Shown here: positions 502 to 24,979 of the stretch, in pieces | Numbering within the stretch: position 1 is the first letter of the stretch | Layout of the letters: each line of letters begins with the position of its first letter | Assembly: GCF_055900595.2 (NCBI RefSeq) | Contig: NZ_CM148325.1 | Reading direction: 5' to 3' (one strand) | Length of the DNA stretch: 64,000 bases | Made by a program: the position numbers and the translations under genes | The notes under the pieces: model-generated | What the model saw: only the letters and a program-made list of their open reading frames with translations | The model's database searches: none | Told to the model about the DNA's origin: nothing

Positions 502-664
502 AGCTCCTCCTTAATGACAGGGTTGCGAAGCCCTGATTCTCTTCAGGGTGAATATTAAAGATAACACAAACATTGCGTAACGATTTGATAACAACCCAAA
601 TTGATAAAAGAGGAGAAACCTTGTGGCAAAGCAAATGAAAACCCCGCCGCAGCGGGGTCAGGGA

Positions 665-745
665 TCAGTGAGTAATGATCCAGAGGAGTTCGGCCCAGAA
701 GAGCATCGACAGAGAAAATGCGCCCATCCAGGACCAATATTTCAT
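665..745 (-). CDS. Small hydrophobic protein, 26 aa (MKYWSWMGAFSLSMLFWAELLWIITH), at the K-12 ymiA/yciX position
   Basis: Short ORF found by manual translation between cysB and acnA; hydrophobic single-helix peptide; below the size cut-off of the ORF track. Confidence 0.4.
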   Translation of the reverse strand: MKYWSWMGAFSLSMLFWAELLWIITH

Positions 746-873
746 ATTTGTGTTGATCATAGGCTACACCCTTAACGGTTATTACTTTGTGTTGAGATAA
801 CTCAACCTGTTATTGCTGCGGTGTATTAAAAGCCCTTTAATTCATTAAAAATGGGTAATAAGAATGATGATAA

Positions 874-14775: not shown

Positions 14776-14820
14776 ATGAAAGCGATTTTCGTACTGAAAG
14801 GTTGGTGGCGCACTTCCTGA
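14776..14820 (+). CDS. trpL: trp operon leader peptide
   Basis: ATGAAAGCGATTTTCGTACTGAAAGGTTGGTGGCGCACTTCCTGA encodes [14 protein letters not shown] with tandem Trp codons. Confidence 0.92.
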
Positions 14821-14861
14821 AACGGGCAGTGTATTCACCATGCGTAAAGCAACCAGATACC

Positions 14862-14889
14862 CAGCCCGCCTAATGAGCGGGCTTTTTTT
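14862..14889 (+). terminator. trp attenuator (3:4 hairpin and U-tract)
   Basis: CAGCCCGCCTAATGAGCGGGCTTTTTTTT immediately upstream of trpE. Confidence 0.88.
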
Positions 14890-14911
14890 TGAACAAAATT
14901 AGAGAATAACA

Positions 14912-23204: not shown

Positions 23205-23320
23205 TTAAAAACGATATCCTGCTGAGAACATAAACACCCACGGATCAAGACGTACGCTATCGTGTTGCTGCGCACCACCCAGCTTATAATTTGCGGTGGT
23301 GTCAATATCCATGTACCAGA
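23205..23320 (-). pseudogene. ompW: ompW 3' fragment (last ~38 codons); the gene is interrupted by prophage integration
   Basis: Minus-strand translation ...VWYMDIDTTANYKLGGAQQHDSVRLDPWVFMFSAGYRF-stop matches the recalled OmpW C-terminus; similarity stops at about 23320, beyond which the sequence is AT-rich phage DNA. Confidence 0.8.
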
Positions 23321-23671
23321 CTGGCAGGTTTTAAAAAATCAAATAAGATATTGTATCTGAAAGAAAAAACAGGATTTTGAGATGCTTTTTTATACCGTTT
23401 TTCAGCGTTTTTAACTGCCTGATTTTATTGAAATCTTTTTTAGTTTTGCAGAAAGGATTTTTTGATCGATTGCTTTAATTTTATACATTCCTGATAACGG
23501 AAATTTTTTACCCGTTGACAGTTTTTATCCTCCGGGGCTATATTTCCAACGCGTCAGCAAAATCTGGCGTCGGGATTGGAACCCCGGATGTTTACGGAGC
23601 GATATGAGACGCGCCCGCGTCTTTTTTCATATCGTTTGCACAGTCACATTCGCGATTTATGGCGGGCTGTG

Positions 23672-23697
23672 TGGGGGAGCCGAAAGGCTCGCCGGTT
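23672..23697 (+). repeat. 26-bp direct repeat copy 1 (TGGGGGAGCCGAAAGGCTCGCCGGTT)
   Basis: Exact 26-bp match to 24412..24437; contains a GAGCC-GAAA-GGCTC tetraloop hairpin. Confidence 0.7.
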
Positions 23698-23791
23698 TCC
23701 GTACCCGGTAGTTCCAACCCCGCACAGTTCGCCACCATGATGATTGGAACCTGAAGGTGGCGATAATTTTCAAATGTACGGAGTTATCGTT

Positions 23792-24352
23792 ATGCCCACT
23801 CAAATTTCTGTCGACACTCTTCCTGCAATCACCCACAACCAGGTCCCCGTTATTACAACTGAACTTCTGGCGCAGTTATACGGAACAAAAATCAAAAACA
23901 TTTCTGATAACTTTCTGAACAACACGACGCGATTCGTGGTAGGAAAGCATTACTTTAAAATTGAAAAAAACGAATTACGCGAGTTTAAGAACAGACCCGA
24001 AACAATCGGGTTAGTTGGTAAAAATGCCCGCTCCCTTATCCTCTGGACAGAACGTGGCGCAGCCCGCCATGCCAAAATGCTCGAAACCGATCAGGCATGG
24101 GAAGTGTTCGAAAAACTGGAAGACTGTTATTTCAGCCAAAAACAACCACCAGCAACACAAAACTCACCCACCCCAAATGATGGATGCGCATTACTGATCC
24201 ACTTTGATAAACACGGTCAGGTAGAGTTCACAGAAAAAGTCCCCGCCGATGCGATGGTATGCACTCTGGAACGGTTTAAATTTTATCTGGAGCAACACGG
24301 CTGGCTCGTTGCCCGTAAAGAACAACTGGTGGAAAGGCTGATGCAGCTTTAG
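23792..24352 (+). CDS. ORF6N-domain phage regulatory protein (antirepressor-like)
   Basis: ORF track 23744..24352; start set at MPTQISVDTLPAI preceded by GGAG; N-terminal motif PVITTELLAQLYGTKIKNISDNFLNNTTRFVVGKHYFKI resembles the ORF6N/Rha-like DNA-binding domain. Confidence 0.6.
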   Translation: MPTQISVDTLPAITHNQVPVITTELLAQLYGTKIKNISDNFLNNTTRFVVGKHYFKIEKNELREFKNRPETIGLVGKNARSLILWTERGAARHAKMLETDQAWEVFEKLEDCYFSQKQPPATQNSPTPNDGCALLIHFDKHGQVEFTEKVPADAMVCTLERFKFYLEQHGWLVARKEQLVERLMQL

Positions 24353-24411
24353 CAGATATAACAAGTGTTTTTTCTCGTATGCACGCGCACATATGAATTA
24401 TTGTGGGGCGC

Positions 24412-24458
24412 ATGGGGGAGCCGAAAGGCTCGCCGGTTCAACTCCCGCCAGCTCCACC
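24412..24458 (+). repeat. 26-bp direct repeat copy 2 fused to a tmRNA (ssrA) 3'-end-like sequence GGTTCAACTCCCGCCAGCTCCACCA
   Basis: Exact repeat of 23672..23697, then a 25-nt stretch matching my recollection of the E. coli ssrA 3' terminus (T-arm, acceptor 3' strand, CCA). Confidence 0.55.
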
Positions 24459-24730
24459 ATTTTTGACAGGACTGCAACCGGACATCGACAATAAAAACAG
24501 ATAATTACGGACACTGACCAGACAACAAACAGACCTGAACAAGACAAAAATATACACGTGAAATGCACGTGCACTTTATAAAAACCCCAGATTTCACAGT
24601 CTGGGGTTTTTCTGTTTGTAAATAATGGTAACAAAAACACATCACCTTTTGGCGTTCCGTTCCTCTTGACACTGTTTATCCATACAGTTAAAAATAACAC
24701 TGTATACAAACACAGTGTAGAGGGATTTTT

Positions 24731-24979
24731 ATGCGTATTGAAATCTGTATCGCTAAAGAAAAATTCAGTAAAATGCCAAAAGGCTCTGTACCTGCTCTAC
24801 AACAGGAAATGTCTAGCCGTATCAGAAAACGATATGACGATGTGGAGGTTATAGTAAAATCCGCCAGTAATGACGGACTGACCATTTTAAGAGCCGTAGA
24901 TAAAGAAAACGCTCAGAAGTTCATACAGGAAACGCTGCAGGAAGTCTGGGAAACTGCTGATGACTGGTTTTTTCACTAA
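24731..24979 (+). CDS. DinI-family protein
   Basis: 82-aa [15 protein letters not shown]...[17 protein letters not shown]; the C-terminal ETWExADDWF motif is typical of DinI. Confidence 0.75.

What the first reader, a model, noticed from the sequence alone, without database searches (positions are those of the whole stretch)
23660..24460. Duplicated 26-bp element with tRNA/tmRNA 3'-end-like tails flanking the ORF6N gene
TGGGGGAGCCGAAAGGCTCGCCGGTT occurs twice in direct orientation 740 bp apart (23672 and 24412), bracketing the ORF6N regulator gene. The second copy runs into GGTTCAACTCCCGCCAGCTCCACCA, which matches my recollection of the last 25 nt of E. coli ssrA (tmRNA) including the CCA end, a classic integration core for ssrA-targeting elements. 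The first copy is followed by a different tRNA-3'-end-like tail ending CGCCACCA. Each copy also contains a perfect GAGCC-GAAA-GGCTC tetraloop hairpin. This looks like attachment-site relics of one or two tRNA/tmRNA-targeting integrative elements captured in this prophage arm, or a pair of small structured RNA genes.
Basis: partly seen in the sequence, partly recalled or inferred. Interest (0 to 1): 0.55.

Follow-up and report, generated by a model that had tools for sequence, protein, structure and literature searches.

The report
Phage immunity RNA plus truncated copy
The repeated 26-mer is the conserved core of a known phage regulatory RNA (C4 antisense RNA) that controls an antirepressor gene; the first copy is an intact gene and the second is a broken copy fused to the tmRNA-gene attachment core of a different prophage type, which is an ordinary recombination scar.

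Summary
The 26-mer occurs exactly twice, at 23672 and 24413 (not 24412). The second tail is 25/25 identical to the 3' end of E. coli ssrA. Copy 1 is not an attachment relic. It is a complete C4-type antisense RNA gene (Rfam RF01695, 78.9 bits) within a standard isrK/a1b1 - C4 - antirepressor (ORF6N) module, the same architecture as the studied Gifsy-1 isrK-anrP locus. Its CGCCACCA tail is the normal C4 3' end. The hairpin-2 loop pairs with the antirepressor gene's Shine-Dalgarno, and this pairing co-varies across 11 alleles. Copy 2 is the 5' half of a second, tandem C4 gene, which is intact in E24377A-type strains. It is cut inside hairpin 2 and joined at GGTT to the attachment core and dinI arm of ssrA-integrating lambdoid phages (PhiR12_1, CP-1639, O157 Sp17 type). 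It has lost both antisense determinants and its target gene. In strain LR-31 the joint lies inside a single ompW-integrated prophage, so it is a mosaic scar and not a live boundary. No reciprocal junction was found. Interest is low: the family is known and the junction is an ordinary kind.

The parts
23205..23330 (-). Truncated ompW fragment, marking the chromosome/prophage boundary (attachment site of the ompW-type prophage)
   Evidence: RefSeq annotation of near-identical genomes and the alignment. PPompW prophages are described in PMC8112680.
23515..23544 (+). Promoter-like site TTGACA-18-TATATT (11/12), predicted to drive isrK, C4 and ant
   Evidence: This is the positional equivalent of the Gifsy-1 isrK promoter, which was shown to drive anrP (PMC4825925).
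23551..23627 (+). isrK-type sRNA carrying the upstream C4 target sites b1 (TTGGAAC, 23576-23582) and a1 (TACGGA, 23593-23598), ending in an intrinsic terminator (23606-23623 plus a T run)
   Evidence: Rfam isrK 72.7 bits (GA 50). The overlapping c4-a1b1 match is 44.6 bits, just under its GA of 46.7. Complementarity is and the terminator.
23655..23739 (+). Intact C4-type antisense RNA gene (copy 1). It has a long closing stem, a GNRA hairpin 1, a hairpin 2 whose loop is a' (UCCGUAC, 23698-23704), a single-stranded b' (GUUCCAA, 23711-23717) and a 3' end ...CGCCACCA. The 26-mer is at 23672-23697.
   Evidence: Rfam RF01695 78.9 bits, full length. Fold -48.9 kcal/mol, z -5.6. Compensatory changes in hairpin 1 are visible among alleles.
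23659..23754 (+). 31-codon ORF overlapping C4, the positional equivalent of Gifsy-1 orf45
   Evidence: The orf45 model is in PMC4825925. Not tested further here.
23744..23783 (+). Downstream C4 targets: b2 (TTGGAAC, 23744-23750) and a2 (GTACGGA, 23776-23782). The a2 site overlaps the Shine-Dalgarno GGAG (23780-23783) of the antirepressor gene.
   Evidence: The a'/a2 pairing co-varies in 11 alleles.
23792..24352 (+). Antirepressor gene (186 aa, ORF6N domain)
   Evidence: Pfam ORF6N 2.5e-20. PHROG 2379 anti-repressor 2.6e-93. 81% DNA identity to the Gifsy-1 anrP region.
24403..24438 (+). 5' half of a second C4 gene (copy 2): the 5' strand of the closing stem (GTGGGGCGCA), hairpin 1 and the 5' side of hairpin 2 (26-mer at 24413-24438). 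The gene is truncated here.
   Evidence: It is collinear with the intact second C4 of E24377A and PapM-36-2 (58.4 bits). The C4 model scores only 20.9 bits here.
24435..24459 (+). ssrA 3'-end core (T-loop, 3' T-stem, acceptor 3' strand, CCA). GGTT (24435-24438) is shared with C4 and contains the joint. CAACTCCCGCCAGCTCCACCA (24439-24459) comes from ssrA only.
   Evidence: 25/25 identity to annotated ssrA. The same core lies at both ends of prophage PhiR12_1.
24460..24979 (+). Arm of an ssrA-integrating lambdoid phage, carrying a LexA-box-like site (24672-24687) and a dinI-like gene (24731-24979)
   Evidence: About 83% identical to the DNA directly after genuine ssrA in about 390 genomes. 84.5% identical to PhiR12 phages and 75.7% to CP-1639, whose record annotates dinI and ssrA together. 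PHROG 189 DinI.

Best explanation
The two 26-mers are the conserved core of two paralogous C4-type antisense RNA genes. That core comprises the top of the closing stem, the GNRA hairpin 1 and the 5' side of hairpin 2. The genes belonged to tandem antirepressor-control modules at the ompW-proximal end of a lambdoid prophage. Copy 1 is intact and is expected to work as the family does. One promoter gives the short isrK RNA and, by read-through of its terminator, a longer transcript. C4 is cut out of that transcript; its stem-plus-CCA end is the RNase P substrate feature known for P1/P7 C4. C4 then pairs through a' and b' with b2 and a2, covering the antirepressor Shine-Dalgarno and keeping the antirepressor off. 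IsrK carries decoy copies of the same targets (a1/b1) and can relieve the block. Copy 2 is a dead remnant. The second C4 gene was broken within hairpin 2, and at GGTT it was joined to the attachment core (the ssrA 3' end) and dinI/tail-fibre arm of an ssrA-integrating phage. This removed a', b' and the second antirepressor gene. The identities of both copies are shown by the data. The route that made the joint is inferred. I favour (about 0.5) integrase-mediated recombination of an ssrA-type attP with the C4 hairpin as a secondary site inside the resident ompW prophage, followed by loss of the intervening DNA through recombination between the two similar prophages. Microhomology-driven illegitimate recombination is the main alternative (about 0.35).
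For: Copy 1: Rfam C4 78.9 bits, isrK 72.7 bits, a1b1 44.6 bits. The fold has z -5.6. Complementary sites lie upstream and downstream, with a2 on the Shine-Dalgarno. In 11 distinct alleles the hairpin-2 loop differs, and each time a 6-11-nt complement lies 31-36 nt downstream, abutting the next gene's SD. The downstream protein is an antirepressor. The experimentally studied Gifsy-1 locus has the same isrK-C4-anrP layout (PMC4825925). RNase P processing of P1/P7 C4 is from Hartmann 1995 as cited in PMC4919922. Copy 2: E24377A and PapM-36-2 have an intact second C4 (58.4 bits) plus a second ORF6N gene at this position. The window sequence follows them up to the hairpin and then switches to the ssrA core and arm. 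That arm follows genuine ssrA in about 390 genomes and in phages PhiR12_1 and CP-1639. In LR-31 the joint lies inside one prophage bounded by ompW and its integrase. For the integrase route: the joint falls at the 5' edge of the T-loop, which is the left edge of the identity block shared by the two PhiR12_1 ends. No P-arm or upstream ssrA sequence was carried along. Prophage-in-prophage integration is documented for ompW prophages (PMC8112680).
Against: No expression, processing or regulation data exist for this locus; the function of copy 1 rests on homology and co-variation. No reciprocal junction was found. C4 is not a better-than-chance mimic of the 29-nt ssrA core: it scores 10 against a shuffled maximum of 9-14. 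The secondary-site idea therefore rests only on the break position and the CGC.GGTT microhomology. No sampled intact second-position allele has exactly the 26-mer, so a short gene conversion or a recombination within the hairpin may also have occurred. The hybrid also exists joined to a different C4 5' strand and isrK allele (L007/L008), and the order of events cannot be resolved.
Confidence: 0.82

Rival explanations
1. The joint between the C4 5' half and the ssrA-type arm arose by illegitimate or microhomology-mediated recombination, or by deletion between two prophages, without any integrase.
For: C4 (CGCCGGTT) and ssrA (CGCGGGTT) share 7 of 8 bases at the break. C4 is not otherwise similar to the ssrA core beyond chance. 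No reciprocal product exists in 5426 complete genomes or in viral contigs. In L009 the same arm abuts a different sequence at a different break point, with the relic reaching 5-7 nt further left next to attB-in-PP_2.
Against: The break lies exactly at the left edge of the phage-borne identity block, at the T-loop, where tRNA/tmRNA-type integrases are expected to exchange strands (that expectation rests on my own knowledge). No P-arm or upstream ssrA bases were retained. A random break landing within those few bases is unlikely a priori.
Confidence: 0.35
2. Copy 2 is a functional chimeric small RNA: a tRNA-like minihelix with the tmRNA acceptor end (G-U at the third pair, CCA), a T-loop and the C4 hairpin, released from the 3' end of the ant transcript.
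For: The C4#2 5' strand GUGGGGC can pair with the ssrA 3' strand GCUCCAC to give a 7-bp stem with a 3' CA overhang. The hybrid is 100% conserved in 17 genomes.
Against: The fold is no better than shuffled sequence (z -1.6). The T-stem has a C-C mismatch (seen directly in the sequence). ARAGORN finds nothing, the tmRNA model scores 22.5 against 47 and the C4 model 20.9 against 45. Identity among 17 closely related copies carries no covariation signal. Both antisense determinants are gone.
Confidence: 0.04
3. Both copies are attachment-site relics of tRNA/tmRNA-targeting elements.
For: Both end in CCA-type tails. Copy 2's tail is truly ssrA.
Against: Copy 1 is a full-length C4 RNA with its target sites and a co-varying partner. 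Its tail is the family's conserved 3' strand. No tRNA or tmRNA gene matches it.
Confidence: 0.02

Closest known systems
C4 antisense RNA / immI module of phages P1 and P7 (Rfam RF01695, with a1/b1 targets RF03163)
   Same: Full-length covariance-model match. Closing stem plus two hairpins and a CCA-type 3' end. Two antisense segments with target copies both upstream and downstream, the downstream one over the ribosome-binding site. Controls an antirepressor.
   Different: Here the RNA sits directly before an ORF6N-type antirepressor in a lambdoid prophage, with no icd-like gene annotated between them. It lies at the prophage edge next to the ompW attachment site. Tandem second modules exist in relatives.
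Gifsy-1 isrK - orf45/STnc1160 - anrP - isrJ locus of Salmonella (Hershko-Shalev et al. 2016, PMC4825925)
   Same: Same order of Rfam elements, isrK/a1b1 - C4 - antirepressor. 81% DNA identity. Gifsy-1 carries 25 of the 26 bases of the repeat. A short ORF overlaps the C4 region in both.
   Different: Gifsy-1 has isrJ after the antirepressor, not a second C4. It has a different b'/b1 specificity (ACGCCAA/TTGGCGT). The published model stresses IsrK acting in trans plus orf45 translational coupling, rather than C4 antisense repression.
P4 CI RNA with seqA/seqC
   Same: A processed immunity RNA with complementary sites on both sides. The Rfam C4 and isrK models detect CI and seqA relatives (PMC10111431).
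   Different: P4 CI acts by causing transcription termination of replication genes. Here the visible target is a ribosome-binding site.
ssrA (tmRNA gene) attachment sites of lambdoid prophages (PhiR12_1, CP-1639, O157 Sp17-type)
   Same: Identical 25-nt ssrA 3' core followed by a homologous dinI arm.
   Different: Here the left partner is a C4 gene, not ssrA. The core is single, with no second copy in the window. It lies inside a prophage whose integrase sits next to ompW or yecE.
Prophage-in-prophage integration and attB-in-PP sites of ompW prophages (Nakamura et al. 2021, PMC8112680)
   Same: Same prophage type and chromosomal site, and the same general process invoked for the mosaic joint. 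A relative (L009) carries the same arm next to the paper's attB-in-PP_2-type sequence.
   Different: The described attB-in-PP sites derive from chromosomal yecE, ykgJ/ecpE and ompW sequences. A phage RNA gene as the recombination partner and an ssrA-type core are not among them. Here there is only a scar and no resident inner prophage.

Membership tests
C4 antisense RNA (RF01695): copy 1 | Covariance-model score at or above the curated gathering score, over the full model | tested here: met
   78.9 bits against 45, model positions 1-87/87
C4 antisense RNA (RF01695): copy 1 | Long closing stem enclosing two hairpins, folding better than chance | tested here: met
   MFE -48.9 kcal/mol, z -5.6, 0 of 200 shuffles as good. 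Compensatory hairpin-1 variants among alleles.
C4 antisense RNA (RF01695): copy 1 | Two antisense segments with complementary targets upstream (a1/b1) and downstream (a2/b2), the downstream one at the ribosome-binding site | tested here: met
   b1 at 23576, a1 at 23593, b2 at 23744, a2 at 23776 overlapping GGAG. The a'/a2 pairing co-varies in 11 alleles.
C4 antisense RNA (RF01695): copy 1 | Controls an antirepressor gene immediately downstream | tested here: met
   ORF6N domain and PHROG anti-repressor. The regulation itself was not tested.
C4 antisense RNA (RF01695): copy 1 | Released from a longer transcript by RNase P | not testable with these tools
   The stem plus ...CACCA end is present in the sequence. 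Processing is known for P1/P7 (Hartmann 1995, cited in PMC4919922).
C4 antisense RNA (RF01695): copy 2 | Model score at or above the gathering score, with a' and b' present | tested here: not met
   20.9 bits against 45. The sequence after GCCGGTT is the ssrA core, so the a' loop and b' are absent.
isrK sRNA (RF01394) | Model score at or above the gathering score, ending in an intrinsic terminator | tested here: met
   72.7 bits against 50. Terminator at 23606-23623.
tmRNA or tRNA gene: copy 2 | Recognised by ARAGORN or by the Rfam model at the gathering score | tested here: not met
   No ARAGORN call. tmRNA 22.5 bits against 47, covering only the 3' end.
Relic of an ssrA-type phage attachment site: copy 2 tail | Identity to the ssrA 3' end, followed by DNA homologous to the arm next to genuine ssrA in lysogens | tested here: met
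   25/25 identity. Arm homology in about 390 genomes and in PhiR12/CP-1639 phages.
Active attachment site (attL/attR) of the present prophage: copy 2 tail | Lies at the prophage boundary, with a second copy of the core at the other end next to the integrase | tested here: not met
   The core is unique in the window. In LR-31 the prophage runs from the ompW-side integrase to the ompW fragment, with the joint inside it. In LH50-c the integrase is next to yecE.

The most novel reading that the evidence does not exclude
The hybrid at 24403-24459 is not a dead scar but an expressed chimeric tRNA-like RNA. In this reading the C4 5' strand pairs with the tmRNA acceptor strand (third pair G-U, 3' CCA). 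RNase P releases the RNA from the antirepressor transcript, and it interacts with tmRNA partners (alanyl-tRNA synthetase, SmpB) or with RNase P as a decoy. A less radical version, which I rate at about 0.5, is that the tRNA-like C4 gene served as a secondary attachment site for a tmRNA-gene-specific integrase and so drove an arm swap between prophage types.
Probability: 0.04. Interest if true: 0.65.

Novelty: new member of a known kind. Interest (0 to 1): 0.22.

Why it matters
The finding explains an odd-looking repeat with two known components: an antisense-RNA immunity switch for an antirepressor, and a mosaic joint between two prophage types. It offers three modest points of value. First, it links the well-studied Gifsy-1 IsrK locus explicitly to the C4 family, with clear loop/target co-variation across alleles. 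Second, it gives a dated example of how ompW prophages swap their tail-side arm with ssrA-type phages. Third, it raises a testable question: can the hairpins of phage tRNA-like RNAs act as secondary sites for tRNA/tmRNA-specific integrases? None of these would surprise a specialist.

Tried and rejected
(1) C4 as a good mimic of the whole ssrA core. MAFFT aligned the ssrA tail to C4's hairpin 2 and b' region. A scan of every window position put C4 at score 10, inside the shuffled range of 9-14 and below a phage tRNA 3' end at 17. Rejected.

(2) Three left partners sharing one break point. I first read L009 this way. On re-inspection its ssrA-like stretch extends further left (28/29 identity), and its left partner is the attB-in-PP_2-type repeat. 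Withdrawn.

(3) Reciprocal junction. The exact hybrid pattern gave 0 hits in viral contigs. The reciprocal-type pattern returned only intact C4 alleles. The C4#2 3' half plus ant2 is present at 99% or more only in 6 tandem-type genomes, and in none of the 15 hybrid genomes.

(4) L007/L008 as a simple deletion between the two 26-mers. This is unlikely as the only step, because their isrK allele differs.

(5) An intact second-position allele with the exact 26-mer. None was found in E. coli, although Gifsy-1 shows that such a combination exists.

(6) The 21-bp yecE-type attB-in-PP_1. It is absent from the window.

(7) Two papers were not held: Williams 2002 (PMC100330) and Hartmann 1995 (PMC41593). 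The statements that crossovers fall at the T-loop sublocation and that CCA is recognised by RNase P therefore rest on my own knowledge.

Full report
OBSERVATION. The 26-mer TGGGGGAGCCGAAAGGCTCGCCGGTT is present exactly twice in the 64-kb window, at 23672-23697 and 24413-24438 on the + strand. No further copy appears with up to three mismatches, and none is expected by chance. The copies flank an intact 186-codon gene (23792-24352) with a Pfam ORF6N domain and strong PHROG anti-repressor matches. The second copy continues as GGTTCAACTCCCGCCAGCTCCACCA. This is identical to the last 25 nt of an annotated E. coli ssrA gene and occurs only once in the window. The first copy continues to ...GTTCGCCACCA.

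COPY 1 IS A C4 ANTISENSE RNA GENE. An Rfam scan gives a full-length match of 23655-23739 to C4 antisense RNA (RF01695, 78.9 bits, gathering score 45). Immediately upstream it gives isrK (23551-23627, 72.7 bits, gathering 50), which overlaps the a1/b1 target model (44.6 bits, just under its 46.7 threshold). The RNA folds into a long closing stem with two hairpins at -48.9 kcal/mol, z = -5.6.

The family's antisense logic can be read directly from the sequence. The hairpin-2 loop UCCGUAC (a') and the single-stranded GUUCCAA (b') have complements upstream, inside isrK (TTGGAAC at 23576, TACGGA at 23593). They also have complements downstream (TTGGAAC at 23744, GTACGGA at 23776). The last of these overlaps the GGAG Shine-Dalgarno, 8 nt before the ATG at 23792. 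A near-consensus promoter (23515-23544) precedes isrK, and an intrinsic terminator (23606-23623) ends it.

I tested the mechanism across relatives. In 11 distinct alleles, from E. coli genomes and viral contigs, the hairpin-2 loop differs. In every case a 6-11-nt complement lies 31-36 nt beyond the C4 3' end and runs into the Shine-Dalgarno of the next gene, while b'/b2 stay constant. Hairpin 1 shows compensatory variants in the alignment: GAGCC/GGCTC, CCGAC/GTCGG, GCGTC/GACGC, CAGCC/GGCTG, GAACC/GGTTC and GAGCT/AGCTC.

The studied Gifsy-1 locus has the same Rfam layout, a1b1/isrK - C4 - anrP - isrJ, and is 81% identical in DNA. In that system the isrK promoter drives anrP, the read-through transcript is translationally silent, a processed RNA (STnc1160) arises from the region I identify as C4, and IsrK supplied in trans activates anrP translation (PMC4825925). 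IsrK carries the a1/b1 decoy sites, which fits it acting as a competitor for C4. That last step is my inference. The co-occurrence of C4 and isrK near Bro/ORF6N-type genes has been noted before (PMC7313666; PMC10111431).

COPY 2 IS A TRUNCATED SECOND C4 FUSED TO AN ssrA-TYPE PHAGE ARM. In E24377A and PapM-36-2 the same antirepressor gene is followed by a complete second C4 (58.4 bits) and a second, partial ORF6N gene. That second C4 has its own a'/a2 pair, GGUUUCC/GAAACC. The window follows these genomes through the 5' strand GTGGGGCGCA and the hairpin, then departs after GCCGGTT into the ssrA core.

To the right of the core, the DNA (with a dinI-like gene at 24731-24979) is homologous to three things:
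- the DNA directly after the genuine ssrA gene in about 390 O157/O145/O111 genomes;
- the end of prophage PhiR12_1, whose record has 49 nt of true ssrA at one end and ...GGATACGGGTTCAACTCCCGC at the other, as expected for a prophage excised from ssrA;
- CP-1639, which is annotated with dinI and ssrA together.

As an RNA gene copy 2 fails every test. ARAGORN finds nothing. The tmRNA model scores 22.5 against 47 and the C4 model 20.9 against 45. The fold is no better than shuffles, z -1.6. The T-stem carries a C-C mismatch, and both antisense segments and the target gene are gone.

CONTEXT. The window is E. coli chromosome (cysB-topA-trp-yciGFE), followed by a truncated ompW fragment (23205-23330) and a lambdoid prophage. 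In strain LR-31 the same hybrid lies inside one prophage. That prophage runs from an intact ompW plus integrase/excisionase, through the early, lysis, head and tail genes and dinI, to the hybrid, ant, C4, isrK and the ompW fragment. This is a PPompW in the sense of Nakamura et al. 2021 (PMC8112680). The joint is therefore an internal mosaic scar. In LH50-c the integrase end lies next to yecE instead, which implies a rearrangement between prophages in that strain.

The exact hybrid occurs in only 15 of 5426 complete genomes, mostly from poultry. Two further genomes (L007, L008) have the same 26-mer::core::arm joined to a different C4 5' strand and a Gifsy-1-like isrK allele, with no antirepressor gene. 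One genome (L009) has the arm next to an attB-in-PP_2-type sequence, with the ssrA-like stretch reaching further left.

WHY THE TWO COPIES ARE IDENTICAL. The 26-mer equals the consensus of the C4 alignment, and 25 of its 26 bases are present in Salmonella Gifsy-1 together with a #2-like 5' strand. It is simply the most conserved part of the family. The sampled intact second-position alleles in E. coli differ from it at three or more positions. The parent was therefore either an unsampled allele, or a short conversion or recombination occurred within the hairpin. I cannot resolve which.

HOW THE JOINT AROSE (inferred). The break falls within GGTT, at the 5' edge of the ssrA T-loop. This is the left edge of the block that the two PhiR12_1 ends share. 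From my own knowledge, tRNA/tmRNA-type integrases are expected to exchange strands there, and the phage supplies everything 3' of that point. No P-arm or upstream ssrA bases are present. This favours integrase-mediated recombination of an ssrA-type attP with the C4 hairpin of a resident ompW prophage, followed by recombination between the two collinear prophages that removed the inner DNA. Prophage-in-prophage integration is documented for this prophage type (PMC8112680).

Three results count against this route. No reciprocal junction was found. C4 does not resemble the ssrA core beyond chance. The 7-of-8 microhomology could equally serve illegitimate recombination. I put the integrase route at about 0.5 and the microhomology route at about 0.35.

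VERDICT. Copy 1 is a member of a known RNA family in a known regulatory module. Copy 2 is a non-functional remnant of a paralogue joined to an ssrA-type attachment core. The locus is a new member of known kinds and of low general interest. It leaves one modest testable question, namely whether phage tRNA-like RNA genes serve as secondary integration sites.

Noticed in passing
window 24672-24687: LexA-box-like palindrome CTGTTTATCCATACAG lies within a promoter-like site (TTGACA at 24666), about 45 nt upstream of the dinI-like gene. This suggests SOS control of the prophage-borne dinI.
   Followed up: no
window 61048-61223 (-): Strong Rfam match to the sok antitoxin RNA (112.4 bits), indicating a hok/sok-type toxin-antitoxin locus in the early region of the prophage.
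   Followed up: no
window 57609-57762 (-): Two adjacent phage-borne tRNA genes. ARAGORN calls them Lys(ttt) and Met(cat). The homologous pairs are annotated tRNA-Ile + tRNA-Lys in LH50-c and tRNA-Ile + tRNA-Arg in LR-31, so the CAT tRNA is probably an Ile2 type and the second tRNA varies between strains.
   Followed up: partly
L004 (NZ_CP100500.1 2340672-2341985) with L001: In strain LH50-c the prophage carrying the hybrid has its integrase and excisionase next to yecE, while its tail end abuts the ompW fragment. This implies an inversion or exchange between a yecE prophage and an ompW prophage. LH50-c also has a further C4 gene in the early region (L004, about 23880-23965) that the window lacks.
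   Followed up: partly
L009 4907-5026 (NZ_CP135671.1): The same dinI arm with its ssrA relic (tGCGGtTTCAACTCCCGCCAGCTCCACCA) directly abuts a roughly 90-nt sequence present in 5249 of 5426 E. coli genomes. That sequence corresponds to the ykgJ/ecpE-derived attB-in-PP_2 of Nakamura et al. The junction lies next to a truncated serU tRNA fragment near yodB. It is a second, different mosaic joint at the same core.
   Followed up: partly
L007 4860-5026 and L008: An orphan module consisting of an isrK allele with Gifsy-1-type b1 (TTGGCGT) plus a C4 5' half, fused to the ssrA core, with no antirepressor gene at all. An IS1414 lies just downstream of dinI.
   Followed up: partly
L002 6992-7336 (E24377A): A tandem second immunity module. 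It has an intact C4 with a different a' specificity (GGUUUCC pairing with GAAACC upstream of AGAGGA) followed by a frameshifted, partial second ORF6N gene. It has no isrK of its own, only a T-run remnant after the first antirepressor gene.
   Followed up: partly
window 23659-23754 (+): A 31-codon ORF (MAGCVGEPKGSPVSVPGSSNPAQFATMMIGT) lies wholly within and just after C4 and ends 38 nt before the antirepressor start. It is the positional equivalent of Gifsy-1 orf45, which was reported to couple translation into anrP.
   Followed up: partly
window 631-833 (-): Enterobacterial sRNA STnc180 (202.7 bits) in the cysB-topA region. The Trp leader is at 14797-14890. Both are ordinary chromosomal features.
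   Followed up: no
window 24580-24611 (+): Strong terminator-like hairpin (14 pairs, AAAAACCCCAGATTTCACAGTCTGGGGTTTTT) between the ssrA core and dinI, preceded by an ACGTG-rich palindrome (24552-24574). It is conserved in part in PhiR12_1.
   Followed up: no
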